A stretch of 33,775 nt of DNA from a virus. Lineage: Duplodnaviria; Heunggongvirae; Uroviricota; Caudoviricetes. Positions 1-30,871 of the stretch are shown here, piece after piece. The stretch spans positions 1 through 33,775 of the IMG/VR virus record IMGVR_UViG_2671180456_000007, one strand, 5' to 3'. The stretch's first letter is position 1, and each line of letters starts with the position of its first letter. The notes under the pieces are model-generated. The model was given only the letters and a program-made list of their open reading frames with translations. It searched no databases and was not told the origin of the DNA. The position numbers were made by a program, and so were the translations under genes.

Positions 1-122
1 GGACAATCCAAATGGCGAATTACCGTCTTATATCACTGGCGCTGACATCTCCGGATGACGGGGGCAGCTGTTATCTCTGGCTCAACCGTGGGCAACCACC
101 CGCAGTTAACCGGCGACGATAA
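1..122 (+). CDS. Head-tail joining protein FII-like, C-terminal fragment (5' end lies outside the window)
   Basis: Open frame from position 3 to TAA at 120-122; translation ends ...SPDDGGSCYLWLNRGQPPAVNRRR, which resembles the C-terminus of lambda gpFII as I recall it; sits immediately upstream of Z. Confidence 0.55.
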   Translation, partial: TIQMANYRLISLALTSPDDGGSCYLWLNRGQPPAVNRRR

Positions 123-136
123 ACGCAGGGTGAATT

Positions 137-712
137 ATGGCGATAAAAGGGCTTGATCAGGCGATTGACAATCTGAGCCGGGTTCGTAAAAACGCCATTC
201 CGGCTGCTTCTGCAATGACCATTAACCGCGTGGCCACAACGGCGATTAATCAGTCTTCGTCACAGGTTGCCCGGGAAACCAGGGTGAGACGGAAACTGGT
301 AAAGGAACGGTCCAGACTGAAACGGGCGACGGTCAGAAATCCGAATGCCAGAATTATCGTTAACCGCGGTGATCTCCCTGTGATTAAGCTGGGGATCAGA
401 ATGCTGGGGCGTCGTCCGAACAGCATACTCAAAGCCGGTCAGCATCGTTATCAGCGGGCATTTATCCAGCGATTAAATAATGGGCGCTGGCATGTTATGC
501 AACGTCTTCCCCAGGCCAGATATGAGGAGGGCAATGACGACAAGGGAAGGAAAAAGCGTAATCGCCTTCCCATTCAGGTGGTGAAAATCCCGATGGCGGC
601 CCCACTGAAACAGGCATTTGATGAGAATGTTGACCGTATCCGGCGTGAACGCCTGCCTAAAGAACTGGCATACGCGCTGAAACAACAACTGAGGATTGCG
701 ATAAAACGATGA
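137..712 (+). CDS. Z: Minor tail protein Z (tail completion)
   Basis: 191-aa ORF, N-terminus MAIKGLDQAIDNLSR... and C-terminus ...[23 protein letters not shown] resemble lambda gpZ; stop overlaps the next start (ATGA). Confidence 0.85.
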   Translation: MAIKGLDQAIDNLSRVRKNAIPAASAMTINRVATTAINQSSSQVARETRVRRKLVKERSRLKRATVRNPNARIIVNRGDLPVIKLGIRMLGRRPNSILKAGQHRYQRAFIQRLNNGRWHVMQRLPQARYEEGNDDKGRKKRNRLPIQVVKIPMAAPLKQAFDENVDRIRRERLPKELAYALKQQLRIAIKR

Positions 713-1104
713 AACACACTGACATTCGTGCCGCAGTGCTGGATGCACTCGAGCAGCATGAACACGGGGCGACGCTGTTTGATGGTCGCCCCGTTGTTTT
801 TGACGAAGAGGATTTTCCTGCGATCGCGGTTTATCTGACGGATGCAGAGTATACCGGTGAAGAGCTGGATGCAGATACCTGGCGGGCCACACTGCATATT
901 GAGGTGTTTTTACCGGCACAGGTACCTGATTCGGAGCTCGATCAGTGGATGGAAAGCCGGATTTATCCGGCGATGACTGCGATCCCTGCACTGGCAGGAC
1001 TGATTACCACGATGGTTACGCAGGGCTATGAGTATCGTCGTGATGACGATATGGCGTTATGGAGCTCTGCGGATCTGACTTATTCCATTACATACGAGAT
1101 GTGA
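709..1104 (+). CDS. U: Tail terminator protein U
   Basis: 131-aa ORF (lambda gpU is 131 aa); [17 protein letters not shown]...[11 protein letters not shown] is lambda gpU-like; translationally coupled to Z. Confidence 0.85.
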
Positions 1105-1111
1105 GGACGAT

Positions 1112-1864
1112 ATGGCAACACCAAATCCCCTGGAGCCGGTAAAAGGTGCCGGTACCACTCTGTGGGTTTACAACGGCAAGGCTGATGCTTATGCAAACCC
1201 GTTGTCAGACGATGACTGGCAGCGACTGGCTAAGGTGAAGGATCTGACGCCGGGCGAGATGACGGCTGAATCCTATGATGATAACTACCTGGATGATGAA
1301 GACGCGGACTGGAGCGCGACCGGGCAGGGGCAGAAATCTGCAGGTGATACCAGTTTTACGCTGGCCTGGAAACCGGGAGAGGAAGGCCAGAAAGGGCTTA
1401 TAGGCTGGTTTGAAAGCGGCGATGTCCGGGCCTATAAAATCCGTTTTCCGAATGGCACGGTGGATGTGTTTCGTGGCTGGGTCAGCAGTATCGGTAAGGC
1501 CGTGACGGCGAAAGAAGTGATCACCCGCACGGTGAAAGTCACTAACGTGGGTAAACCTTCTGTAGCGGAAGAACGCAGCAAAATTACGCCGGTCAGTGCG
1601 ATTAAGGTGACGCCGACATCCGGTACGGTGGCAAAAGGGAAAACAACCACCCTGACGGTTTCTTTTGAGCCGGAAAGTGCAACCGACAAGACGTTCAGAG
1701 CGGTTTCCGCCGATCCGTCGAAAGCCACCATTAGTGTGAAAGATATGACAATTACGGTAAACGGCGTGGCGACAGGTAAGGTGCAGATCCCTGTGGTGAG
1801 CGGAAATGGTCAGTTCGCCGCAGTGGCTGAAGTCACCGTTACTGAAGCGGGCGCTGCAGGGTAA
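1112..1864 (+). CDS. V: Major tail tube protein V with C-terminal Ig-like domain
   Basis: 250-aa ORF; [15 protein letters not shown]...[41 protein letters not shown] is lambda gpV-like; RBS GAGGA upstream. Confidence 0.9.
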
Positions 1865-1877
1865 ACGGAGGTAATAC

Positions 1878-2309
1878 ATGTTTCTGAAAACAGAACAATT
1901 TGAATATAACGGTGTGTCTGTCACGCTTTCCGAATTGTCTGCGCTGCAGCGTATCGAGCATCTTGCCCTCCTGAAACGGCGTGCAGAACAGGCAGAATCC
2001 AGCGGCAACCTGCAGGTAAGCGTGGAAGATCTCGTCAGAACCGGCGCGTTTCTGGTGGCGATGTCCCTGTGGCATAACCATCCACAGAAAACGCAGTCAC
2101 CGTCAATGAATGAGGCCGTGATGAAGATAGAGCAGGAAGTGCTCACCACCTGGCCTGCCGATGCCATTGCCCGGGCGGAAGACGTGGTGTTGTGCCTGTC
2201 CGGGATGATCGAAGCTGTTCGTCCGGATACTGATATTACTGAAGTGGCGAAAAATAACACGCTGACTGATGATGATTTTTCTGCGGGAAAGTCTTCGACG
2301 GCGAGCTGA
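1878..2309 (+). CDS. G: Tail assembly chaperone G
   Basis: 143-aa ORF directly after V; ends ...DDDFSAGKSSTAS and contains the GGGAAAG slip site near its 3' end, as in lambda G. Confidence 0.85.
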   Translation: MFLKTEQFEYNGVSVTLSELSALQRIEHLALLKRRAEQAESSGNLQVSVEDLVRTGAFLVAMSLWHNHPQKTQSPSMNEAVMKIEQEVLTTWPADAIARAEDVVLCLSGMIEAVRPDTDITEVAKNNTLTDDDFSAGKSSTAS

Positions 2310-2749
2310 ACTTTGCCCTCAGACTGGCGCGTGAGATGGGGAGACCCGACTGGCGCGCCATGCTTGCCGGGATGACATCCACCGAATATGCCGACTGGCG
2401 CCGTTTTTACCGCACGCATTATTTTCAGGATACCCAGCTGGATATGCATTTTTCCGGGCTGACGTACGCTGTACTCAGCCTGTTTTTTTGCGATCCGGAT
2501 ATGCATCCCTCTGATTTCAGCCTGCTTGTCCCCCGGCATGAGGAAGAGCAGGTGGAGAGGCCGGATGAGGACAAAATGCTGATGCAGAAAGCGGCAGGAC
2601 TTGCCGGAGGCGTCCGGTTCGGTGGGGACGGAGGGCGCGATATTTTATCGTCTGCGGATGTGGCGGATGTCATGGTGGATGATGCCGCATTAATGATGGC
2701 TTCAGCGGGGATTCCGGGAGGTGTGAGATATGTCCCAGCCGGTTGGTGA
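1878..2749 (+). CDS. T: Tail assembly chaperone G-T fusion made by programmed -1 frameshift at 2285-2291
   Basis: The -1 frame is open from the slip site (GGG AAA GTC TTC GAC ...) through the ORF ending at 2749; lambda-like gene T sequence (RPDWRAMLAGMTSTEYADWRRFY...). Confidence 0.75.
2285..2291 (+). other. Programmed -1 ribosomal frameshift slippery heptamer G GGA AAG
   Basis: Heptamer GGGAAAG in the X XXY YYZ register of gene G (codons GCG GGA AAG), identical to the lambda G/GT slip site. Confidence 0.8.
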
Positions 2750-5303
2750 TCTTGTTATTGACCTGAGTCTGGATGCTGTCCGTTTCGATGAGCAGATGAG
2801 CCGGGTAAGGCGTCATTTTTCAGGTCTGGATACCGACGCCAGAAAAACCGCCAGTGCTGTTGAACAGGGCCTGAGCCGCCAGGCGCTGGCTGCACAAAAA
2901 GCCGGGATTTCCGTCGGGCAGTATAAAGCGGCCATGCGAACCCTGCCCGCACAGTTTACGGATATCGCCACGCAGCTTGCCGGTGGTCAGAATCCCTGGC
3001 TGATCCTGCTGCAACAGGGCGGTCAGGTGAAGGACTCCTTCGGCGGGATGATCCCCATGTTCAGGGGGCTTGCCGATGCGATCACCCTGCCGATGGTCGG
3101 GGTCACCTCGCTGGCGGTGGCGACAGGTGCACTGGTGTACGCCTGGTACCAGGGAGATTCCACGCTTTCAGCGTTTAATAAAACCCTGGTTCTTTCCGGT
3201 AATCAGTCCGGACTGACTGCCGATCGTATGCTGACTCTCTCAAGAGCCGGGCAGGCAGCAGGGCTGACGTTTAACCAGGCGAGAGAGTCACTGGCAGCCC
3301 TGGTGAATGCCGGTGTGCGTGGTGGTGAACAGTTTGATGCCATCAACCAGAGTGTCGCGCGTTTTGCGTCTGCATCCGGTGTGGAGGTGGATAAAGTCGC
3401 TGAAGCCTTCGGGAAGCTGACCACTGACCCGACGTCGGGACTGATGGCGATGGCGCGCCAGTTCCGTAACGTGACGGCAGAGCAGATTGCGTATGTTGCA
3501 CAGCTGCAGCGTTCCGGAGACGAGGCCGGGGCATTGCAGGCGGCGAACGATATCGCCACGAAAGGCTTTGATGAGCAGACCCGTCGCCTGAAAGAAAACA
3601 TGGGAACACTGGAGACCTGGGCGGATAAAACAGGGAAGGCATTCAAATCGATGTGGGATGCCATTCTGGATATCGGTCGTCCGGAATCCTCAGCGGATAT
3701 GCTCGCCAGTGCGCAGAAGGCATTTGATGAGGCGGATAAAAAATGGCAGTGGTACCAGAGTCGGAGCCAGCGCCGCGGTAAAACCTCCTCTTTCCGGGCC
3801 AACCTTCAGGGCGCATGGGATGACCGGGAAAATGCCCGTCTGGGTCTGGCAGCGGCAACGCTGCAGTCGGATATGGAAAAAGCCGGTGAACTGGCGGCAA
3901 GGGACAGGGCTGAGCGTGAGTCGTCACAGCTGAAGTATACCGGAGAGGCGCAGAAGGCGTATGAGCGCCTGCTGACGCCACTGGAGAAATATACCGCCCG
4001 GCAGGAAGAGCTGAATAAGGCCCTGAAAGACGGGAAAATCCTGCAGGCGGATTACAACACGCTGATGGCGTCGGCAAAAAAGGATTATGAGTCGACGCAG
4101 AAAAAGCCGTCCGGTGTGAAGGTGTCTGCCGGTGAGCGCCAGGAAGACCAGGCGCATGCAGCCCTGCTGGCGCTTGAAACTGAGCTCAGGACGCTGGAGA
4201 AGCACAGCGGTGCGAATGAAAAAATCAGCCAGCAGCGCCGTGATTTATGGAAAGCGGAAAATCAGTATGTGGTCCTGAAAGAGGCCGCCACGAAACGGCA
4301 GTTATCTGAGCAGGAAAAATCCCTGCTGGCCCATGAGAAAGAAACGCTGGAGTACAAACGCCAGCTGGCTGAGCTGGGCGACAAGATTGAACACCAGAAA
4401 CGGCTGAATGAGCTGGCACAGCAGGCGGCGCGGTTTGAACAGCAGCAGAGCGCGAAGCAGGCGGCAATCAGCGCAAAAGCCCGCGGACTCACCGACCGTC
4501 AGGCGCAGCGGGAGTCGGAAGAGCAGCGCCTTCGTGAGGTGTACGGTGATAATCCGGCTGCGCTGGCGAAGGCCACATCTGCACTGAAGAACACCTGGTC
4601 TGCGGAGGAGCAGCTTCGTGGAAGCTGGATGGCCGGGATGAAGTCCGGCTGGGGCGAGTGGGCGGAAAGTGCGACGGACAGTTTTTCGCAGGTTAAAAAC
4701 GCGGCCACGCAGACCTTTGACGGTATTGCACAGAATATGGCAGCGATGCTGATCGGCAGCGAACAGAACTGGCGTGGTTTCACCCGTTCTGTGCTGTCCA
4801 TGCTGACAGAGATTTTTCTGAAGCAGGCGATGGTGGGGATAGTCGGGAGTATCGGCAGCGCCATTGGCGGTGCTTTCGGTGGTGGTGCGTCTGCCTCCAC
4901 GGGGACGGCCATTCAGGCTGCGGCGGCGAACTTCCATTTCGCGACCGGGGGATTTACGGGGACGGGGGGTAAATATGAACCTGCGGGGATTGTTCATCGC
5001 GGGGAGTTTGTCTTCACGAAGGAGGCGACCAGCCGGATTGGTGTCGGCAATCTGTACCGCCTGATGCGGGGCTATGCGGAAGGTGGTTATGTCGGCGGTG
5101 CCGGAAGTCCGGCGCAGATGCGGCGGGCGGAAGGCATTAATTTTAATCAGAACAATCACGTGGTGATTCAGAACGACGGCCCCAACGGGCGGGCAGGGCC
5201 GCAGCTGATGAAAGCGGTGTATGAGATGGCCCGCAAGGGGGCACAGGATGAACTCCGGCTGCAGTTGCGTGATGGCGGTATGTTATCAGGGAGCGGTGGA
5301 TGA
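2730..5303 (+). CDS. H: Tail tape measure protein H
   Basis: 857-aa ORF (lambda gpH is about 853 aa); lambda-like N-terminus MSQPVGDLVIDLSLDAVRFDEQMSRVRRHF and C-terminus; coiled-coil-rich middle. Confidence 0.9.
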   Translation: MSQPVGDLVIDLSLDAVRFDEQMSRVRRHFSGLDTDARKTASAVEQGLSRQALAAQKAGISVGQYKAAMRTLPAQFTDIATQLAGGQNPWLILLQQGGQVKDSFGGMIPMFRGLADAITLPMVGVTSLAVATGALVYAWYQGDSTLSAFNKTLVLSGNQSGLTADRMLTLSRAGQAAGLTFNQARESLAALVNAGVRGGEQFDAINQSVARFASASGVEVDKVAEAFGKLTTDPTSGLMAMARQFRNVTAEQIAYVAQLQRSGDEAGALQAANDIATKGFDEQTRRLKENMGTLETWADKTGKAFKSMWDAILDIGRPESSADMLASAQKAFDEADKKWQWYQSRSQRRGKTSSFRANLQGAWDDRENARLGLAAATLQSDMEKAGELAARDRAERESSQLKYTGEAQKAYERLLTPLEKYTARQEELNKALKDGKILQADYNTLMASAKKDYESTQKKPSGVKVSAGERQEDQAHAALLALETELRTLEKHSGANEKISQQRRDLWKAENQYVVLKEAATKRQLSEQEKSLLAHEKETLEYKRQLAELGDKIEHQKRLNELAQQAARFEQQQSAKQAAISAKARGLTDRQAQRESEEQRLREVYGDNPAALAKATSALKNTWSAEEQLRGSWMAGMKSGWGEWAESATDSFSQVKNAATQTFDGIAQNMAAMLIGSEQNWRGFTRSVLSMLTEIFLKQAMVGIVGSIGSAIGGAFGGGASASTGTAIQAAAANFHFATGGFTGTGGKYEPAGIVHRGEFVFTKEATSRIGVGNLYRLMRGYAEGGYVGGAGSPAQMRRAEGINFNQNNHVVIQNDGPNGRAGPQLMKAVYEMARKGAQDELRLQLRDGGMLSGSGG

Positions 5304-5629
5304 AAACCTTTCGCTGGAAAGTGAAGCCGGATATGGAGGTGAACTCGCAGCCATCGGTGCGTGAAGTGCGTTTTGGTGACGGGTACTCACAGCGTATGGC
5401 GGCAGGGCTGAATGCTGACCTGAAAACATACAGGGTGACGCTTTCCGTGACCCGGGAGGAGGCCCAGCATCTGGAAGCGTTCCTGGCAGAGCACGGTGGC
5501 TGGAAGGCATTTTTGTGGAAGCCACCCTATGCATACCGGCAGATAAAGGTGACCTGTGCCGGGTGGTCTGCGCGGGTCGGGATGTTGCGCGTTGAGTTCA
5601 GCGCGGAGTTTAAGCAGGTGGTGAACTGA
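5300..5629 (+). CDS. M: Minor tail protein M
   Basis: 109-aa ORF (lambda gpM is 109 aa), ATGA overlap with H; lambda-like sequence. Confidence 0.85.
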   Translation: MKTFRWKVKPDMEVNSQPSVREVRFGDGYSQRMAAGLNADLKTYRVTLSVTREEAQHLEAFLAEHGGWKAFLWKPPYAYRQIKVTCAGWSARVGMLRVEFSAEFKQVVN

Positions 5630-6327
5630 TGCAGGATATTCGCGAAGAAAGTCTGAACGAGTCGGTTAAGTCAGAGCAGTCACCGCGGGTGGTACTCTGG
5701 GAAATCGACCTGACGGTACAGGGTGGTGAGCGGTATTTTTTCTGTAATGAGCTGAATGAAAAAGGGGAGCCGGTCACCTGGCAGGGGCGTAAGTATGAGG
5801 CATACCCGATTGACGGCAGCGGCTTTGAGATGAACGGCCGGGGCAGCAGTGCCAGACCGTCGCTGACGGTGTCCAATCTGTTCGGTCTGGTCACCGGGAT
5901 GGCGGAAGACCTGCAGAGTCTGGTGGGGGCCACGGTGGTCCGCCGCCGGGTGTATGCCCGTTTTCTGGATGCGGTGAATTTCGTTGCGGGCAATCCGGAG
6001 GCGGACCCGGAGCAGGAGCTGAGTGACCGCTGGGTGGTGGAGCAGATGTCGCAGCTGACAGCCATGACGGCCTCGTTTGTGCTGGCTACACCGACCGAGA
6101 CGGACGGGGCGCTGTTTCCCGGTCGCATCATGCTGGCGAACACCTGTATGTGGGATTACCGGGGAGATGAATGCGGGTATAACGGTCCTGCGGTGGCGGA
6201 TGAGTTCGACAACCCCACCACGGATATCCGTAAGGACAGATGCAGCAAGTGCATGCGCGGGTGTGAACTGCGCAGGAATGTCGGCAATTTTGGCGGTTTC
6301 CTTTCCATTAATAAACTTTCGCAGTAA
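5629..6327 (+). CDS. L: Minor tail protein L (C-terminal cysteine cluster)
   Basis: 232-aa ORF (lambda gpL is 232 aa); C-terminal motif CMWDYRGDECGY...CSKCMRGC consistent with the Fe-S-binding cysteines of gpL. Confidence 0.85.
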   Translation: MQDIREESLNESVKSEQSPRVVLWEIDLTVQGGERYFFCNELNEKGEPVTWQGRKYEAYPIDGSGFEMNGRGSSARPSLTVSNLFGLVTGMAEDLQSLVGATVVRRRVYARFLDAVNFVAGNPEADPEQELSDRWVVEQMSQLTAMTASFVLATPTETDGALFPGRIMLANTCMWDYRGDECGYNGPAVADEFDNPTTDIRKDRCSKCMRGCELRRNVGNFGGFLSINKLSQ

Positions 6328-6337
6328 ATCCCGGTTT

Positions 6338-7081
6338 ATGACACAGACTGAATCAGCGATTCTGGCACATGCCCGGCGGTGTGCGCCTGCGGAGTCGTGC
6401 GGCTTCGTGATAAGCACGCCGGAGGGGGAGCGGTATATCCCTTGTGTGAATATTTCCGCAGAGCCGGAGGCGTATTTTCGTATCGCACCGGAAGACTGGC
6501 TGCGGGCAGAGATGCAGGGGGAGATTGTGGCACTGGTCCACAGTCATCCCGGTGGGCTGCCCTGGCTGAGCGAGGCTGACCGGCGGTTGCAGATAAAAAG
6601 CGCACTGCCCTGGTGGTTGGTCTGCCGGGGTGACATTCACAAATTCCGCTGTGTGCCACATCTGACAGGACGGCGCTTTGAGCACGGGGTGACGGACTGT
6701 TACACGCTGTTCCGGGATGCTTATCATCTGGCGGGGACTGAAATGCCGGATTTTCATCGCGAGGATGACTGGTGGCGCAACGGTCAGAACCTTTACCTGG
6801 ACAATATGGCGGTCACCGGCTTTTACCGGGTGCCCCTGTCCTCTGCACAGGCGGGCGATATTCTGCTGTGCTGCTTTGGTGCTTCGGTACCGAACCATGC
6901 CGCCATTTACTGCGGCAACGGTGAGCTGCTTCACCATCTGCCTGAACAACTGAGTAAACGGGAGAGGTATTCCGAAAAATGGCAACGACGAACGCATTCA
7001 GTCTGGCGTCACCGCCACTGGCACGCATCTGCCTTCACGGGGATTTACAACGATTTGGCCGCCGCCTCAGCCTGTATGTGA
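6338..7081 (+). CDS. K: Tail tip assembly protein K (JAB/MPN plus NlpC/P60-like domains)
   Basis: ATG at 6338 follows the L stop; protein MTQTESAILAHARRCAPAESCGFV... has a JAMM-like motif HSHPGG...SEAD and an NlpC/P60-like Cys/His region (DCYTLFRDAYH). The ORF-finder start at 6077 is an upstream extension overlapping L; the 3' end overlaps gene I by about 100 nt. Confidence 0.75.
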   Translation: MTQTESAILAHARRCAPAESCGFVISTPEGERYIPCVNISAEPEAYFRIAPEDWLRAEMQGEIVALVHSHPGGLPWLSEADRRLQIKSALPWWLVCRGDIHKFRCVPHLTGRRFEHGVTDCYTLFRDAYHLAGTEMPDFHREDDWWRNGQNLYLDNMAVTGFYRVPLSSAQAGDILLCCFGASVPNHAAIYCGNGELLHHLPEQLSKRERYSEKWQRRTHSVWRHRHWHASAFTGIYNDLAAASACM

Positions 7082-7659
7082 ACACGGCAGCGGAAGCCAT
7101 TCGCGCCCTGTCGATGCAGATGCCGGGCTTTCGCCGTCAGATGAACGAAGGCTGGTACCAGATACGTATTGCCGGTTATGACACGGCACCGGAGGCGGTG
7201 TACGCCCGTCTTCACGAACAGCTGGGTGAGGGAACGGTCATCCACATTGTGCCGCGACTGGCCGGGGCCGGAAAGGGTGGACTGCAGATTGTGCTGGGGG
7301 CGGCAGCCATCGTGGGCTCTTTCTTCACTGCCGGGGCATCAATGGCGTTATGGGGTTCAGCCCTGGCAGCCGGTGGTTTTTCTGCCACCACGATGCTGTT
7401 TTCACTTGGAGCCAGCATGATTCTGGGCGGTGTGGCCCAGATGCTGGCCCCGAAGGCAAAAACACCGGATTACCGCGCAACGGATAACGGCAGACAGAAC
7501 ACGTACTTTTCCTCACTGGATAACATGATTGCCCAGGGGAACCCGATGCCGGTGCCTTACGGGGAAATGCTGGTTGGCTCCCGCCGTATATCCCAGGACA
7601 TCAGCACCCGTGATGAAGGCGGGGGCGGAAAGGTCGTGGTTATCGGGCGGCAGGGGTAA
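6979..7659 (+). CDS. I: Tail tip assembly protein I
   Basis: 226-aa ORF; ...ARICLHGDLQRFGRR...YQIRIAGYDT...GNPMPVPYGEMLVGSRRISQDISTRDEGGGGKVVVIGRQG is lambda gpI-like. Confidence 0.8.
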   Translation: MATTNAFSLASPPLARICLHGDLQRFGRRLSLYVNTAAEAIRALSMQMPGFRRQMNEGWYQIRIAGYDTAPEAVYARLHEQLGEGTVIHIVPRLAGAGKGGLQIVLGAAAIVGSFFTAGASMALWGSALAAGGFSATTMLFSLGASMILGGVAQMLAPKAKTPDYRATDNGRQNTYFSSLDNMIAQGNPMPVPYGEMLVGSRRISQDISTRDEGGGGKVVVIGRQG

Positions 7660-7666
7660 AAAGAAT

Positions 7667-7705
7667 AAAAAAATCCCGCAGTGATCGCGGACAGGAACTG
7701 CGGGA
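7667..7705 (-). terminator. Intrinsic terminator on the minus strand (8-bp stem TCCCGCAG/CTGCGGGA followed by a U7 tract on the minus-strand RNA)
   Basis: Plus-strand sequence AAAAAAA TCCCGCAG ...16 nt... CTGCGGGA; read on the minus strand this is a stem-loop followed by TTTTTTTATTCTTTTT. The 16-nt loop is large for a terminator. Confidence 0.5.
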
Positions 7706-7763
7706 GAGTTACGAAGATTAAGTGTAAGGAATTATTCTTATATCACGACAAAAAAATTAACGC
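7667..7763 (-). ncRNA. Candidate ~95-nt noncoding RNA from a moron in the I-J spacer
   Basis: Predicted transcript between the minus-strand sigma70-like promoter (7770-7798) and the minus-strand terminator (7667-7705); no ATG-initiated ORF inside. Confidence 0.35.
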
Positions 7764-7769
7764 AGAGAA

Positions 7770-7798
7770 ATTATACGCGCCACAGTCAGTTTGTGAAA
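7770..7798 (-). promoter_or_regulatory. Sigma70-like promoter on the minus strand: TTCACA, 17-nt spacer, TATAAT
   Basis: Minus-strand -35 TTCACA (plus 7793-7798) and -10 TATAAT (plus 7770-7775) with a 17-nt spacer; A/T-rich UP-like sequence upstream on the minus strand. Confidence 0.5.
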
Positions 7799-7872
7799 AT
7801 GTGAAGATATTCAGAATTTTTATGCCATTACCGGTTTTAACCAACAGGATTATCGGTGGGCATGAAAGAAAA

Positions 7873-7905
7873 CCCCGGTATCTGCTGATACCGGGGTTTC
7901 TCTTT
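7873..7905. terminator. Bidirectional intrinsic terminator hairpin (10-bp stem CCCCGGTATC/GATACCGGGG, loop TGCT) flanked by T-rich tracts on both strands
   Basis: Perfect 10-bp inverted repeat with a 4-nt loop; TTTCTCTTT follows on the plus strand and TTTTCTTTC on the minus strand. Confidence 0.55.
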
Positions 7906-8275
7906 AGCATGGCAGAAATGTGTTTCATGCTTTTCGGGCGAAGGATATCCGACTTCTGTACGGAATGGCAAGTGGCGGTTAATTTATTCAGGGGAAGGCT
8001 GTATGGGAAAAGGTGGCGGTAAGGCACACACGCCTCGTGAGGCGAAGGATAATCTCAAATCCACGCAGATGATGAGCGTGATTGATGCGATTGGTGAGGG
8101 ACTGATAGAAGGTCCGGTGAAGGGACTGCAGAGTATCCTGGTGAACAAAACCCCGCTGACGGACACGGACGGTAATCCCGTGATACACGGTGTGACGGCG
8201 GTCTGACGCGCCGGGGAGCAGGAGCAGACACCACCGGAAGGCTTTGAGTCCTCCGGTGCTGAAACCGGACTGGGC

Positions 8276-9919
8276 GTGGAAGTGACGAAGGCAAAACCGG
8301 TGACGCGCACCATTACGTCCGCGAACATTGACCGCCTGCGGGTTACCTTCGGGGTGCAGTCACTGGTGCAGACCACGTCAAAGGGTGACCGAAACCCGAC
8401 ATCCGTCCGCCTGCTGATTCAGTTACAGCGTAACGGTAACTGGGTGACAGAAAAGGATGTCACCATTAACGGCAAGACCACCTCGCAGTTTCTGGCGTCG
8501 GTGATTCTGGATAATCTGCCTCCCCGTCCTTTTAACATCCGGATGGTCCGGGAGACAGCGGACAGCACCACGGACCAGCTGCAGAATAAGACGCTGTGGT
8601 CGTCATACACCGAAATCATCGATGTGAAACAGTGCTACCCGAACACGGCCATTGTGGGGCTGCAGGTGGATGCGGAGCAGTTCGGCGGCCAGCAGATGAC
8701 GGTGAACTACCATATCCGCGGTCGCATCATCCAGGTGCCGTCAAACTATGACCCGGAAAAACGCACGTACAGTGGTATCTGGGACGGCAGCCTGAAACCG
8801 GCATACAGCAACAATCCGGCCTGGTGTCTGTGGGACATGCTGACTCACCCGCGCTACGGCATGGGAAAACGTCTGGGGGCGGCGGATGTGGACAAGTGGG
8901 CGCTGTATGCCATCGGGCAGTACTGCGACCAGACGGTCCCGGATAGTTTCGGGGAGACCGAGCCGCGGATGACCTTCAATGCGTACCTGGCACAACAGCG
9001 TAAGGCATGGGACGTGCTCAGTGATTTCTGCTCGGCGATGCGCTGTATGCCGGTATGGAACGGCCAGACGCTGACGTTTGTTCAGGACCGCCCGTCGGAT
9101 GTGGTGTGGCCGTACACCAACAGCGATGTGGTGGTGGATGATAACGGCGTGGGTTTCCGCTACAGCTTCAGTGCCCTGAAGGACCGGCACACGGCGGTGG
9201 AGGTGAATTATACCGACCCGCAGAACGGCTGGCAGACCTCCACGGAACTGGTGGAAGACCCGGAAGCCATACTGCGCTACGGACGCAACCTGCTGAAGAT
9301 GGACGCGTTCGGCTGTACCAGCCGCGGTCAGGCCCACCGTGCCGGACTGTGGGTGATAAAGACCGAACTGCTGGAAACGCAGACGGTGGATTTCACGCTC
9401 GGGTCTCAGGGGCTGCGGCACACACCCGGTGACATCATTGAAATCTGTGATAACGACTATGCCGGGACCCTGACCGGCGGACGTGTCCTGTCCATTGATG
9501 CTGCCACCCGCACTCTGACGCTGGACCGTGAAGTGACACTTCCGGAGACCGGTGCCGCCACGGTGAACCTGATTAACGGCAGCGGTAAGCCGGTGAGTGT
9601 GGACATCACCGAACACCCCGCGCCGGACCGGATACAGGTCAGTACCCTGCCTGATGGTGTGGAGACATACGGGGTGTGGGGACTCTCCCTGCCGTCACTG
9701 CGCCGTCGCCTGTTCCGCTGTGTCTCCGTCCGGGAAAACACGGACGGCACCTTTGCCATCACGGCGGTGCAGCACGTACTGGAAAAAGAAGCCATCGTGG
9801 ATAACGGTGCCCGCTTTGAGCCGCAGTCAGGTTCCCTGAACAGCGTCATCCCACCGGCAGTGCAGCACCTGACGGCCAGTATCTGGCGCAGGCGAAATGG
9901 GACACGCCGCGGGTGGTGA
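8276..9919 (+). CDS. J: J protein central fragment (the frame is open from 8207; GTG at 8276 is the first possible start)
   Basis: 547-aa ORF with lambda J-like sequence ([29 protein letters not shown]... [29 protein letters not shown]...). Confidence 0.6.
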
Positions 9920-11454
9920 AGGGTGTGCGCTTCAGTCTGCGCCTGACCAGTGGTAAGGGAACGGATGCCAGACTGGTGACCACCGCCATCACCGCAGACA
10001 CGGAGCACCGTTTCAGCGGCCTGCCGCTCGGGGAATACACCCTGACGGTGCGGGCGATAAACAGCTATGGCCAGCAGGGTGAACCTGCCACCACCACCTT
10101 CCGGATTGCCGCACCGGCAGCACCGTCGCGGATTGAGCTGACGCCGGGCTATTTTCAGATAACCGCAACGCCGCATCTTGCCGTTTATGACCCGACGGTA
10201 CAGTTTGAGTTCTGGTTCTCGGAAAAGCGGATTGCGGATATCAGGCAGGTTGAAACCACAGCACGCTATCTTGGCACGGCGCTGTACTGGATAGCCGCCA
10301 GTATCAATATCAAACCGGGCCATGATTATTATTTTTACGTTCGCAGTGTGAACACCGTTGGCAAATCGGCATTCGTGGAGGCTGTCGGTCGGGCGAGCGA
10401 TGATGCGGAAGGTTACCTGGATTTTTTCAAAGGAGAGATAGGGAAAACACATCTGGCTCAGGAGCTGTGGACGCAGATTGATAACGGTCAGCTTGCGCCT
10501 GACCTGGCTGAAATCAGGACGTCCATTACGGATGTCAGCAATGAAATCACGCAGACTGTCAATAAGAAACTGAAAGACCAGAGTGCGGCAATCCAGCAGA
10601 TACAGAAGGTTCAGGTTGATACAAATAATAATCTGAACAGCATGTGGGCTGTGAAGCTGCAACAGATGAAGGACGGACGCCTTTATATTGCGGGTATCGG
10701 TGCCGGTATTGAGAATACGCCAGCAGGAATGCAGAGTCAGGTGCTGCTGGCGGCAGACAGGATTGCGATGATTAATCCTGCGAATGGCAACACAAAGCCG
10801 ATGTTTGTTGGTCAGGGCGATCAGATATTCATGAACGACGTGTTCCTGAAACGCCTGACGGCTCCCACCATTACCAGCGGCGGTAATCCTCCGGCATTTT
10901 CCCTGACACCGGACGGAAAACTGACCGCTAAAAATGCAGATATCAGTGGCAGTGTGAATGCGAACGCCGGGACGCTCAACAATGTCACAATTAATGAGAA
11001 CTGTCAGATTAAGGGGAAACTGTCAGCCAACCAGATTGAAGGCGATATAGTCAAAACAGTGGGTAAGGCTTTTCCGCGGGACTCCCGGGCACCGGAGCGG
11101 TGGCCATCAGGGACCATTACCGTCAGGATTTATGACGATCAGCCTTTTGACAGGCAAATTGTTATTCCGGCGGTGGCATTCAGCGGCGCTAAACATGAGC
11201 GGGAGAATAACGATATTTATTCGTCATGCCGCCTGATAGTACGGAAAAACGGTGCTGAAATTTATAACCGTACCGCGCTGGATAATACGCTGATTTACAG
11301 TGGTGTTATTGATATGCCAGCTGGTCGCGGCCACATGACGCTGGAGTTTTCGGTGTCAGCATGGCTGGTGAATAACTGGTATCCCACAGCAAGTATCAGC
11401 GATTTGCTGGTTGTGGTGATGAAGAAAGCCACCGCAGGCATCAGTATCAGCTGA
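9913..11454 (+). CDS. J: J protein C-terminal fragment (fibronectin-like repeats and receptor-binding end)
   Basis: 513-aa ORF; ...[54 protein letters not shown]... is lambda J-like. Confidence 0.6.
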
Positions 11455-11521: not shown

Positions 11522-12121
11522 ATGCGTAAAGTTTGTGCAGCCATTTTGTCCGCAGCCATCTGTCTGTCCGTATCCGGTGCGCCTGCATGGGCGTCTGAAC
11601 ATCAGTCCACACTGAGCGCGGGGTATCTTCATGCCCGTACGAACGCTCCCGGCAGCGATAATCTGAACGGGATTAACGTGAAATACCGTTATGAGTTTAC
11701 GGACGCGCTGGGGCTGATTACGTCCTTCAGTTATGCCAATGCTGAGGATGAGCAAAAAACGCACTACAGCGATACCCGCTGGCATGAAGATTCCGTGCGT
11801 AACCGCTGGTTCAGCGTGATGGCGGGGCCGTCTGTACGCGTGAATGAATGGTTCAGCGCGTATGCGATGGTGGGTGTGGCTTACAGCCGTGTGTCGACTT
11901 TCTCCGGGGATTATCTCCGCGTAACTGACAACAAGGGGAAAACGCACGATGTGCTGACCGGAAGTGATGACGGTCGCCACAGCAACACGTCTCTGGCGTG
12001 GGGGGCTGGCGTGCAGTTTAACCCGACCGAATCCGTGACCATTGACCTTGCTTATGAAGGTTCCGGTAGTGGTGACTGGCGAACGGATGCATTTATTGTT
12101 GGTATCGGATACCGTATCTGA
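11522..12121 (+). CDS. lom: Lom outer membrane protein (Ail/Lom family beta-barrel)
   Basis: 199-aa ORF with a signal peptide (MRKVCAAILSAAICLSVSGAPAWA) and a C-terminus ...AFIVGIGYRI typical of lambda Lom; lambda-like position downstream of J; RBS GAGAGG. Confidence 0.9.
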   Translation: MRKVCAAILSAAICLSVSGAPAWASEHQSTLSAGYLHARTNAPGSDNLNGINVKYRYEFTDALGLITSFSYANAEDEQKTHYSDTRWHEDSVRNRWFSVMAGPSVRVNEWFSAYAMVGVAYSRVSTFSGDYLRVTDNKGKTHDVLTGSDDGRHSNTSLAWGAGVQFNPTESVTIDLAYEGSGSGDWRTDAFIVGIGYRI

Positions 12122-12272: not shown

Positions 12273-15200
12273 ATGACAGTAAAAATTTCTGGCGTGCTTA
12301 AAGATGGCACAGGAAAACCAGTACAGAACTGCACCATTGTGCTGAAGGCCAGACGAACCAGCAGCACGATGGTGGTGAACACGGTGGCCTCTGAAAATCC
12401 GGATGAAGCCGGACGTTACAGCATGGATGTTGAGCATGGTCAGTACAGCGTCACCCTGCTGGTTGAAGGTTTTCCGCCTTCACATGCCGGGACCATTACC
12501 GTCTATGAAGGTTCCAGACCAGGTACGCTGAATGATTTTCTCGGTGCCATGACGGAGGATGATGTCCGACCGGAGGCACTGCGCCGCTTTGAGCAGATGG
12601 TGGAAGAGGTGTCACGTAACGCCTCCGCGGTTGCACAGAATACGGCAGCCGCGAAAAAATCAGCCAGCGAGGCGGCAACTCATGCAACCGATGCTGCAGC
12701 CTCAGCACGTGCCGCCAGCACGTCAGCCGGACAGGCCGCGTCGTCGGCTCAGTCAGCGTCTTCCAGCGCAGGAACGGCATCGACAAAGGCCCGTGAAGCA
12801 GCAAAAAGTGCTGCTGCAGAGTCATCAAAAAGCGCGGCAGCTACCAGCGCCAGTGCCGCGAAAACGTCAGAAACGAATGCCGCAGCATCACAAAAATCGG
12901 CAGCCACTTCTGCATCCACAGCGACCACGAAGGCGTCAGAAGCTGCCACCTCGGCACGGGGTGCGGCGGCCTCAAAAGAGGCAGCGAAATCTTCAGAAAC
13001 GAATGCATCATCAAGTGCCAGTAGTGCAGCTTCCTCGGCAACGGCGGCAGGAAATTCCGCGAAGGCGGCAAAAACGTCCGAGACGAACGCTAAGTCTTCT
13101 GAAACAGCAGCGGGACAGAGCGCCTCAGCTGCGGCAGGTTCAAAAACAGCGGCTGCATTATCTGCCAGTGCCGCGTCAACAAGTGCCGGGCAGGCCTCAG
13201 CCAGTGCCACCGCCGCCGGAAAATCGGCAGAAAGCGCCGCATCATCCGCTTCAACAGCCACAACGAAGGCTGGCAAAGCCACTGAGCAAGCCACTGCAGC
13301 AGCGAGGTCTGCTTCTGCAGCAAAAACCTCTGAAACAAATGCAAAGACTTCAGCAGACAATGCTGCTTCCTCTAAGGCAGCAGCCGCATCGTCAGCCAGT
13401 TCAGCGGCGTCATCGGCATCATCTGCGTCTGCTTCAAAAGATGAGGCGACCAGACAAGCGTCAGCAGCGAAAGGTAGTGCCACGACAGCAACAACGAAAG
13501 CATCAGAGGCGGCAGGCAGTGCGACGGCTGCATCTCAGAGCAAAGTTGCTGCTGAATCCGCGGCAACGCGCGCCGAGACAGCAGCAAAACGGGCAGAGGA
13601 TATTGCATCCGCCGTGGCGCTGGAGGATGCGAGCACGACGAAAAAGGGGATAGTACAGCTCAGCAGTGCGACCAACAGCACATCTGAAACGCTGGCCGCA
13701 ACGCCAAAAGCAGTTAAAGCAGCCAATGACAATGCGAATAGCCGATTGGCGAAGAATCAGAATGGCGCTGATATCCCCGACAAGGCCCGCTTCCTGAGTA
13801 ACATTAATGCTGCCAGCAAGACTGATATGGCCTCTAAACGAGGAATGAAGTATTCGACAGTGAATGCGCCCGCAGGAGTTGAAGCAGGTAAGTTTTATCC
13901 TGTGGTCATTCGTCGTTCTGCTGGATTCGTCGATGAATTAGCATCTAGGGTAACGATAAGCACAAGTTCAAGAACAGGAAACCACAGACTGAACAACTGC
14001 GAGTTCAACGGATTTGTCATGCCCGGTGGTTGGACTGACAGAGGAAAATATGCTTATGGGATGTTTCACGCATATACTGCAAGTGAACGTGCTATTCATT
14101 CTATCATGATGGGTAACAAAGCGGATGATCTTTGTTCTGTGTTCTATGTTGAAGGTGAAGCGTTTCCTATTGCTGTATATGTAGAAGAAGGCTTATCTGT
14201 TGTTGTACCATCTGCCGATTATGTCGTCGGACAAACAACTTACAAATGGGGCGCCACTAACCCTAAAACAGAATGCGTTGCCGCTGATACTATACTTGAT
14301 TTCTCAAATGGTAGAGGGTTTTATAGTTCGCACTCATTCCTCACAAATGCAGACATTAGCGGTAATAAGGTTTACGCTAATGATGAAGTTATTGTCCGTA
14401 GTCAGAATGCGTTAAGGATGATTGCTGGCGATTACGGTGTCATATGGCGAAATGATGGAGCAAATACTTACTTGCTCATGACTGATAAAGGCGACCAGTA
14501 CGGTGGCTGGAACGGTCTTCGACCATTTGCAGTAAATAACGCAACAGGTGAAGTGACGATCAATACACCACTTAATTCTCCAAAAGGGGTTAAGGGGAAC
14601 TCTGATACAGCTACGAAACTTCAGACTGCAAGAAAAATATCCGGTGTTCCATTTGATGGCTCTACTGATATCACTTTAACCGCCGCGCATGTTGCCGCTT
14701 TCGCAAGAAGAGCAACAGGGTCATATGCTGATGCTGATGGCGGCGTGCCGTGGAATGCTGAATCTGGTGCTTATAATGTAAATAGAACGGGCGACAGTTA
14801 TATTCTTGCCAACTTTTATACTGGTGTAGGTGGTTGCCGTACGCTTCAAATTAAGGCTCACTATAAAAATGGTGGGTTGTTTTATCGTTCATCTCGCGAT
14901 GGCTATGGTTTTGAAAGTGGTTGGGAGCAGGTTTACACGACTGGATTTAGACCTCAGCCGGCTGATATAAACGCACCAACCGCTGCCGACGGATGGTTAA
15001 ATAGTGGTAACGGAACAGCATTTACGACTGCTCAGTTTATAACGTGGCTAAATAATCAGGGTGCATTTTCAAACAAATATTGGATTGCACGGTGCTCATG
15101 GTATTACGCCAACAATAATTATATAGACGACACTGGTTGCGGTAGGATCGATCTATCTGGTTCCGTGATTGAGGTGTTTAGTAATAAGACAACAAGCAAT

Positions 15201-30624: not shown

Positions 30625-30699
30625 GATGGTGTAGCTCAGCGGTAGAGCAGTTGGCTGTTAACCAACTGGTCGGTGGTTCGAATCCACCCACCATCGCCA
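30625..30699 (+). tRNA. tRNA-Asn (anticodon GTT)
   Basis: Manual fold: acceptor GATGGTG/CACCATC, D-stem GCTC/GAGC, anticodon stem GTTGG/CCAAC with loop CTGTTAA, T-arm GGTGG-TTCGAAT-CCACC, discriminator G plus encoded CCA. Confidence 0.8.
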
Positions 30700-30704
30700 A
30701 TTTA

Positions 30705-30791
30705 GGGGAGTTAGTCCGTAGGGGCAGCGGGGTAGACTGTAAATCTACTGTCATTGCGACTCGGGTGGTTCGACTCCATCACTCCCCACCA
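30705..30791 (+). tRNA. tRNA-Tyr (anticodon GTA), class II with long variable arm
   Basis: Acceptor GGGGAGT/ACTCCCC, anticodon stem GTAGA/TCTAC with loop CTGTAAA, variable stem-loop, T-arm GGTGG-TTCGACT-CCATC, encoded CCA; the D-arm region is non-canonical (4-nt linker). Confidence 0.7.
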
Positions 30792-30795
30792 AATT

Positions 30796-30871
30796 GCCGG
30801 TTTAGCTCAGTTGGTAGAGCGTCTGCCTTGTAAGCAGGATGTCAGCGGTTCGATCCCGTTAACCGGCACCA
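30796..30871 (+). tRNA. tRNA-Thr (anticodon TGT)
   Basis: Acceptor GCCGGTT/AACCGGC, D-arm GCTC-AGTTGGTA-GAGC, anticodon stem TCTGC/GCAGG with loop CTTGTAA, T-arm AGCGG-TTCGATC-CCGTT, encoded CCA. Confidence 0.8.

What the first reader, a model, noticed from the sequence alone, without database searches (positions are those of the whole stretch)
9866..9919. Frameshift within J separating the central and C-terminal portions
Lambda J-like sequence continues from frame A (...PPAVQHLTA) into frame B (...[26 protein letters not shown]...), with the switch near 9870-9880. Frame A runs into a stop at 9917-9919. Compared with lambda J as I recall it, a few codons appear to be missing at the junction, consistent with a small deletion. 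Together with the opal codon this makes J a twice-disrupted gene, while every other tail gene is intact.
Basis: seen in the sequence. Interest (0 to 1): 0.45.

Follow-up and report, generated by a model that had tools for sequence, protein, structure and literature searches.

The report
Dead tail-tip gene in prophage remnant
The frame break in the lambda-like J gene is real: a 22-base deletion between two 7-base repeats, inherited by a whole Shigella sonnei lineage inside a headless prophage remnant, which is ordinary gene decay and not programmed frameshifting.

Summary
J starts at 8003 and reads in one frame to 9868. J-homologous coding then continues in the -1 frame, and the old frame stops at 9917-9919.

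Compared with a 98.4%-identical intact gpJ (E. coli ECAMP047, 1157 aa), the window has two disabling lesions:
- TGG>TGA at codon 68 (8204-8206).
- A 22-bp deletion. Intact relatives read CAC-CTGACGG-TGGAGGTGAGCGCAG-CTGACGG-CCAG. The window keeps one CTGACGG (9869-9875), the signature of slippage between short direct repeats.

The deletion is not an assembly error. The window is contig CXDZ01000040.1, whose J fragments are named Shigella sonnei in public records. All 24 other public loci I fetched, including seven complete chromosomes, carry both lesions.

It is not programmed recoding. There is no slippery heptamer in the 100-nt overlap, no unusual RNA structure, and 1,887 E. coli genomes keep a single frame.

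In a complete chromosome of this lineage the remnant has lost its head and packaging genes to IS3/IS21. Some sub-lineages carry a third J deletion.

This is a routine pseudogene of low interest. Separately, the contig switches at 13623-13681 into an SSU5-like phage-plasmid, which may be an assembly chimera.

The parts
18..119 (+). 3' remnant (last 34 codons) of the FII-like head-tail joining gene. Everything upstream is missing, and the contig starts at an IS21 boundary.
   Evidence: tblastn with the ECAMP047 protein matches only residues 84-117. In chromosomes of this lineage, IS21 istA/istB lies directly upstream of the position matching window base 1.
137..7659 (+). Intact lambda-like tail genes Z, U, V, G, T, H, M, L, K, I.
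   Evidence: Full-length, gap-free tblastn matches (Z has an in-frame 14-aa difference) at 88-100% identity to an intact prophage.
8003..8206 (+). J fragment 1: codons 1-67 followed by the opal stop.
   Evidence: This exact 67-aa product is recorded on 551 public contigs.
8204..8206 (+). Nonsense mutation TGG(Trp68)>TGA, followed by C.
   Evidence: Codon-by-codon comparison with intact gpJ. No complete E. coli genome matches this context at 100%.
8207..9868 (+). J central part in frame A (codons 69-622 of the intact gene). It is called as a 547-aa ORF from GTG 8276.
9869..9875 (+). Deletion junction: the single retained copy of the direct repeat CTGACGG. Intact genes have two copies 15 bp apart, and 22 bp are missing here.
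   Evidence: Three-way DNA alignment with the E2348/69 and VT1-Sakai J genes and a global alignment with ECAMP047 gpJ.
9875..9919 (+). Out-of-frame tail of frame A ([14 protein letters not shown]) ending in TGA at 9917-9919.
9876..11454 (+). J C-terminal part in frame B (codons 632-1157 of the intact gene). Frame B is open from 9820, the first start codon is GTG 9913 (513-aa ORF), and an alternative GTG lies at 9925 (509 aa).
11522..12121 (+). lom (Ail/Lom outer-membrane protein), intact.

Best explanation
The J gene (tip attachment / host-specificity protein) of a lambdoid prophage remnant in the Shigella sonnei chromosome is a pseudogene. The frame break at 9869-9875 is a 22-bp deletion. It removed one copy of a 7-bp direct repeat (CTGACGG) plus the 15 bp between the two copies. 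The most likely cause is slipped-strand mispairing during replication, or another microhomology-mediated deletion. The deletion takes out 7 codons plus one base inside the first Ig-like domain of J. Translation then shifts out of frame and stops 14 codons later at 9917-9919. The gene also carries an upstream nonsense mutation (W68*, 8204-8206). Both lesions became fixed in an ancestor of the sampled S. sonnei lineage and are inherited vertically. They are tolerated because the prophage cannot make particles anyway: its head and packaging module and part of its lysis module have been replaced by IS3 and IS21. Shown here: the deletion, its repeat signature, its presence in independent assemblies, the absence of frameshift signals, and the loss of the head genes. 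Inferred: the molecular mechanism (slippage), the neutrality of the lesions, and their unknown order.
For: 1. Intact relatives differ at the junction only by the extra 22 bp and contain CTGACGG twice, 15 bp apart. The window has one copy.
2. Against a 98.4%-identical intact gpJ, the only frame- or stop-changing differences are W68* and this deletion. The other 55 differences are substitutions, 37 of them synonymous.
3. The long form is ancestral. It is in frame, has the same length as phage lambda J in this stretch, and is present in 1,887 of 5,426 complete E. coli genomes. None of those genomes has the junction.
4. The junction and the opal codon are both present in all 24 other loci fetched. 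These are four IMG/VR contigs, nine loci found through the 547-aa product, CP032523, and ten loci found through the 67-aa product. They include complete chromosomes CP044151, CP044191, CP060117, CP041511, CP032523, CP029794 and CP026802.
5. Public records name the exact products as Shigella sonnei proteins, on 62, 38 and 551 contigs. CP060117 is S. sonnei UKMCC1015.
6. In CP032523 the genes upstream of Z are holin, DUF1327, IS3 and IS21. Intact relatives have lysozyme, Rz, Nu1, A, W, B, C, D, E, FI and FII there. The window keeps only the last 34 codons of FII.
7. Decay continues in sister strains. Examples are a 17-bp deletion between GGTGTGG repeats in J (L032 and L033), a split gene I, and IS insertions in stf.
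8. The break lies inside Pfam Ig_J (residues 609-712 of the intact protein) and not at a domain boundary.
Against: No read-level data were available for this particular assembly. Support comes from other assemblies of the same lineage. Every other tail gene in the window is intact, which could suggest selection to keep them, but S. sonnei is a young clone and few lesions are expected in about 8 kb. A GTG at 9925 with a moderate Shine-Dalgarno-like match (-7.2 kcal/mol) means some translation of a C-terminal fragment cannot be excluded. The slippage mechanism is inferred from the repeat signature alone.
Confidence: 0.95

Rival explanations
1. Sequencing or assembly artefact: the 22 bp are present in the real genome and were lost in this draft assembly.
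For: The window is a short-read-style draft contig (CXDZ01000040.1), and its downstream half may be chimeric.
Against: The identical junction occurs in 24 other loci from independent assemblies, including seven complete chromosomes. A 22-bp loss flanked by a 7-bp repeat is not a typical base-calling error.
Confidence: 0.01
2. Programmed recoding: a -1 ribosomal frameshift in the 9820-9919 overlap, with UGA read-through at codon 68, yields full-length J.
For: The needed shift is -1, the direction used by lambda G/GT. UGA followed by C is a weak terminator and is misread as Trp, the ancestral residue (my own knowledge, not tested here).
Against: There is no X_XXY_YYZ heptamer, no site where both tRNAs could re-pair, and no homopolymer of 4 or more in the 100-nt overlap. 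The downstream RNA folds no better than shuffled sequence (z = 0.09). Any shifted product would still lack 7 conserved residues of the Ig_J domain. The arrangement is confined to one clone, while diverged homologues have a single frame. Sub-lineages add a further frameshifting deletion.
Confidence: 0.01
3. Functional split gene: the C-terminal 509-513-aa fragment, which carries the receptor-binding domain, is made by re-initiation at GTG 9913, 9916 or 9925, next to or overlapping the frame-A stop. It serves some purpose, such as receptor masking or supply to co-resident lambdoid prophages.
For: GTG 9916 overlaps the TGA at 9917-9919 in a GTGA arrangement, and GTG 9925 has a moderate SD-like match. 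The C-terminal ORF has no further lesion in most copies. Defective prophages can complement and recombine with one another in E. coli O157 (PMC2669165).
Against: Ribosomes must first pass the opal at codon 68 or restart at GTG 8276 (SD -3.2). The fragment lacks the first third of its Ig_J domain and has no link to the tail-tip hub. The arrangement is a few-hundred-SNP-scale clonal feature, so its persistence says nothing about selection. The overlap of start and stop is created by chance by the new frame.
Confidence: 0.03

Closest known systems
Phage lambda gpJ (tip attachment / central tail fibre protein; PDB 8iyk and related entries)
   Same: The intact relatives match lambda J over residues 1-834 and 865-1157 (E = 0 and 3e-186). 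They have the same six Pfam domains in the same order and the same gene neighbourhood, I-J-lom-stf.
   Different: Here the reading frame is broken twice (W68* and the 22-bp deletion), so no full-length protein is encoded. A 343-bp low-GC spacer precedes J, compared with 60 bp in lambda.
Split J gene of the Stx1 prophage VT1-Sakai / Sp15 of E. coli O157:H7 Sakai
   Same: This J is also a lambda-type J of a resident prophage, annotated as two CDS 'truncated protein by a mutation'. Sp15 is described as having multiple defects in morphogenetic functions (PMC2669165).
   Different: It is an independent lesion at another position: the break lies near codon 390, and the 22-bp segment is intact there. 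Sp15 still has its head genes and can be induced, whereas the S. sonnei remnant has lost its head module.
Pseudogene formation and IS-driven genome decay in Shigella
   Same: The locus shows IS3 and IS21 replacing the head genes, IS insertions in stf in sister strains, and small deletions and nonsense mutations fixed in a clonal, host-restricted lineage. This matches the pattern described in PMC7373316.
   Different: The lesion studied here is a repeat-mediated small deletion, not an IS insertion.
Lambda G/GT programmed -1 frameshift
   Same: Both involve two overlapping frames in a tail gene with a -1 relationship.
   Different: G/GT has a conserved slippery heptamer, and the arrangement is conserved across diverged phages. 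Neither is true here.

Membership tests
Lambda gpJ family (tip attachment protein J) | Domain set FNIII-A_GpJ, Phage-tail_3, Ig_J, Ig_J_second, Phage_Tail_Tip, Ig_GpJ_C in order | tested here: met
   All six domains are found, but they are split over two frames, and Ig_J is reduced to profile positions 38-104. An intact relative matches the solved lambda gpJ structure at E = 0.
Lambda gpJ family (tip attachment protein J) | One uninterrupted reading frame of about 1130-1160 codons | tested here: not met
   The frame is broken by TGA at 8204-8206 and by the 22-bp frameshifting deletion at 9869-9875. It is a pseudogene of this family, not a functional member.
Programmed -1 ribosomal frameshift site | Slippery heptamer X_XXY_YYZ in the zero frame within the overlap | tested here: not met
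   None is present in 9820-9919, and there is no relaxed site where both tRNAs re-pair.
Programmed -1 ribosomal frameshift site | Stimulatory downstream RNA structure | tested here: not met
   The minimum free energy of 9860-9980 is -44.5 kcal/mol against a shuffle mean of -44.8 (z = 0.09).
Programmed -1 ribosomal frameshift site | Two-frame arrangement conserved among diverged homologues | tested here: not met
   The arrangement is seen only in copies 99.4-99.97% identical to the window. A total of 1,887 E. coli genomes and lambda have one frame.
Pseudogene by short-direct-repeat (slippage) deletion | The intact homologue has two copies of a short repeat flanking the missing segment, and the mutant keeps one | tested here: met
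   The intact sequence is CTGACGG-15 bp-CTGACGG, and the window has a single CTGACGG. A chance 7-bp match at a given junction has a probability of about 6e-5.
Pseudogene by short-direct-repeat (slippage) deletion | Deletion length not a multiple of 3, with a premature stop downstream | tested here: met
   The deletion is 22 bp, and the stop falls 14 codons later at 9917-9919.
Pseudogene by short-direct-repeat (slippage) deletion | The lesion is real in the genome (independent sequencing) | tested here: met
   24 other public loci carry it, seven of them complete chromosomes. Reads of this particular assembly were not available.
Defective (cryptic) prophage remnant | Loss of genes essential for particle formation besides J | tested here: met
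   Terminase, portal, protease, decoration, capsid, FI and most of FII are absent and replaced by IS3 and IS21 in CP032523. The FII stub lies at window 18-119.

The most novel reading that the evidence does not exclude
The broken J is not inert. The C-terminal 509-513-aa fragment carrying the receptor-binding domain would be translated by re-initiation at GTG 9913 or 9925. Together with the intact Z-I tail genes of this headless remnant, it would be used by the host or by co-resident lambdoid prophages, for example for receptor masking, for tail-part donation, or as a recombination reservoir for host-range switching.
Probability: 0.03. Interest if true: 0.4.

Novelty: already known. Interest (0 to 1): 0.08.

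Why it matters
It matters little beyond annotation. The three ORFs at 8003-8206, 8276-9919 and 9913-11454 should be annotated as one J pseudogene ('frameshifted; internal stop') and not as three 'host specificity proteins', which is how they appear in public S. sonnei records. The paired lesions are a convenient clonal marker for this S. sonnei prophage remnant. They are also a clean example of repeat-mediated small deletions (22 bp here, 17 bp in a sub-lineage) eroding a prophage that had already lost its head genes to IS elements.

Tried and rejected
- **Programmed frameshifting:** scanned the 100-nt overlap for canonical and relaxed slippery sites and homopolymers and found none. Folded 9860-9980 and found no excess structure.
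- **Assembly error:** searched for the junction elsewhere. It is absent from 5,426 complete E. coli genomes and from GTDB species representatives. It is present in four IMG/VR contigs and in every lineage-matched NCBI locus fetched, so the artefact reading was rejected.
- **Order of the two lesions:** looked for copies with only one of them, using the opal context against E. coli genomes and ten loci found through the 67-aa fragment. None was found, so the order remains unknown.
- **Translational coupling:** Shine-Dalgarno pairing energies at candidate restarts are weak for 8276, 9913 and 9916 and moderate for 9925. This is not evidence of function.
- **Known RNA elements:** an Rfam scan of the whole window found only three tRNAs in the plasmid-like part and nothing near J.
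- **Domain boundary:** I considered that the split might coincide with a domain boundary and so be a tolerable split. It does not, because it cuts inside Ig_J.

Full report
**What is in the sequence**

The lambda-like J gene starts at ATG 8003. Six-frame translation and the ORF list show three features:
- Frame A is interrupted by TGA at 8204-8206.
- Frame A reopens (first start codon GTG 8276) and runs to TGA at 9917-9919.
- The -1 frame is open from 9820 to the normal J stop at 11454.

gpJ Pfam domains are divided between the two long ORFs. FNIII-A_GpJ and Phage-tail_3 lie on 8276-9919. A truncated Ig_J (profile positions 38-104 only), Ig_J_second, Phage_Tail_Tip and Ig_GpJ_C lie on 9913-11454.

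**What the lesion is**

A 361-bp query around the site matched gpJ genes in 1,887 of 5,426 complete E. coli genomes. The best matches span 383 bp, which is 22 bp more than the window.

A three-way alignment with the J genes of E. coli E2348/69 and prophage VT1-Sakai shows the difference. The intact genes read CAC CTGACGG TGGAGGTGAGCGCAG CTGACGG CCAGTAT. The window reads CAC CTGACGG CCAGTAT. One copy of a 7-bp direct repeat and the 15-bp spacer are gone.

A global alignment of the whole gene with the closest intact relative (E. coli ECAMP047 gpJ, 3474 nt, 1157 aa) gives two collinear blocks separated only by this 22-bp gap, plus 56 substitutions. One substitution is TGG>TGA at codon 68. Of the other 55, 37 are synonymous and 18 are amino-acid changes.

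The intact protein reads ...[32 protein letters not shown].... Lambda J has the same length here (...HLT-AEVTADS-GEYQVLARWDTPKVVKG...). The long form is therefore ancestral, and the window has a deletion of 7 codons plus 1 nt. The cut falls inside the first Ig-like domain (Pfam Ig_J, residues 609-712), not between domains.

**Is it real?**

The window is the entire contig CXDZ01000040.1 of NCBI assembly GCA_001258175.1.

The junction is absent from two collections:
- No complete E. coli genome has it as a single piece.
- The GTDB species representatives do not have it.

It is present elsewhere:
- Four IMG/VR contigs have the junction exactly, and all four also carry the opal codon.
- The exact 547-aa frameshift product is encoded on 62 public contigs, the 513-aa product on 38, and the 67-aa product on 551.
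- The sources name the 547-aa and 513-aa products Shigella sonnei; the 67-aa fragment is also labelled E. coli in some records.
- One of the complete chromosomes, CP060117, is S. sonnei UKMCC1015.

Every one of the 24 other loci I fetched has both lesions. They include complete chromosomes CP044151, CP044191, CP060117, CP041511, CP032523, CP029794 and CP026802. The full-length copies match the window at about 99.9% over 13.7 kb; the lowest is 99.4%. The lesion is a genuine, vertically inherited mutation of a clone. It is not an assembly error, and the shared arrangement is not independently conserved.

**Is it programmed?**

No. The evidence is as follows:
- The shift needed is -1, but the 100-nt overlap (9820-9919) has no X_XXY_YYZ heptamer, no site where both tRNAs could re-pair, and no homopolymer of 4 or more.
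- RNA from 9860-9980 folds no better than shuffled sequence (z = 0.09).
- A shifted product would still lack seven residues of Ig_J.
- Ribosomes would first have to read through the opal codon at position 68.
- Diverged homologues all have one frame.

Candidate restart codons have weak Shine-Dalgarno pairing: -3.2 kcal/mol at 8276 and -3.9 at 9913 and 9916. GTG 9925 is moderate at -7.2. Some gene callers use GTG 9925 (509-aa product), but this is what chance would give.

**Context**

The element is nevertheless a remnant:
- Only the last 34 codons of the FII-like head-tail joining gene remain, at 18-119.
- The contig begins exactly where IS21 abuts the prophage in complete chromosomes.
- In CP032523 the genes upstream of Z are Q, a methylase, a SASA-domain protein, holin, DUF1327, IS3 and IS21. 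Intact relatives have lysozyme, Rz, Nu1, A, W, B, C, D, E, FI and FII there.

The prophage cannot build heads or package DNA, so a dead J costs nothing.

Decay continues in sister strains. L032 and L033 have a third J lesion, a 17-bp deletion between GGTGTGG repeats, which is the same signature. One strain has a split gene I (the same record as L012 and L029), and several have IS insertions in stf.

This is the pattern described for Shigella genome degradation (PMC7373316). It also parallels the mutationally split J of the O157 Sakai Stx1 prophage (PMC2669165).

**Mechanism**

A deletion bounded by a 7-bp direct repeat with one copy retained is the classical signature of slipped-strand mispairing or microhomology-mediated deletion. 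That attribution rests on my own knowledge of spontaneous-deletion spectra. The event itself cannot be observed from sequence.

The order of the two lesions is unknown, because no copy with only one of them was found.

**Verdict**

This is an ordinary, already-sequenced pseudogene in a degraded prophage, and its interest is low.

**Side observation: the contig joins two replicon types**

- Up to 13681 the contig is identical, apart from four SNPs, to the S. sonnei chromosomal remnant.
- From 13682 it follows SSU5/pHCM2-like phage-plasmids of about 110 kb. It is 98.4% identical to E. coli pEC16-2 and 97.2% identical to S. sonnei plasmid NZ_CP034066.1.
- The crossover lies in a 59-bp stretch shared by both (13623-13681).
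- The resulting 1680-aa hybrid tail-fibre ORF is on record only in this contig.

I could not decide between an assembly chimera and a strain-specific recombination.

Noticed in passing
window 13623-13681 (crossover); 12273-17315 (hybrid ORF): The contig switches from the S. sonnei chromosomal lambdoid remnant (identical up to 13681) to an SSU5/pHCM2-like ~110-kb phage-plasmid (98.4% to E. coli pEC16-2, 97.2% to S. sonnei plasmid NZ_CP034066.1). The switch occurs within a 59-bp shared tail-fibre stretch. The resulting 1680-aa hybrid fibre is recorded only in this contig. It is either an assembly chimera or a real prophage/phage-plasmid recombinant.
   Followed up: partly
window 8204-8206: The opal codon replaces Trp68 (TGG>TGA) and is followed by C. 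It is present in every lineage copy together with the 22-bp deletion, and no copy with only one lesion was found.
   Followed up: yes
window 10259, 10260, 10263: A cluster of three substitutions within 5 bp is private to this contig (ACAGCA versus AGCGCC in L010). Every other full-length lineage copy compared differs from the window here, except L030, whose C-terminal part is diverged. This could be gene conversion from a paralogous J or a mix of paralogous reads.
   Followed up: partly
L032 and L033, equivalent to window 9656-9672: A sub-lineage has a third J lesion, a 17-bp deletion between 7-bp direct repeats GGTGTGG. This is the same kind of event as the 22-bp deletion.
   Followed up: yes
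window 7660-8002: A 343-bp low-GC (39-45%) spacer lies between I and J. It is shared with intact E. coli relatives but absent from lambda, where the gap is 60 bp. Gene callers sometimes place a 78-84-aa ORF there in relatives. Its function is unknown.
   Followed up: no
window 1-136; L021 6871-9810: The contig starts at an IS21 boundary. In complete chromosomes, IS3 plus IS21 replace the lysozyme-to-FII segment of the prophage, about 10 kb of head and packaging genes.
   Followed up: yes
L016 10021-14213; L009 12035-14220: In two draft contigs the disrupted J is followed, after part of its third ORF, by a second J about 90% identical (an intact 1159-aa ORF in L016). This is a paralogous prophage joined either by rearrangement or by assembly.
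   Followed up: no
window 30625-30868: Three tRNA genes lie in the phage-plasmid part, matching the Asn/Thr/Ser tRNA cluster annotated in pEC16-2.
   Followed up: no
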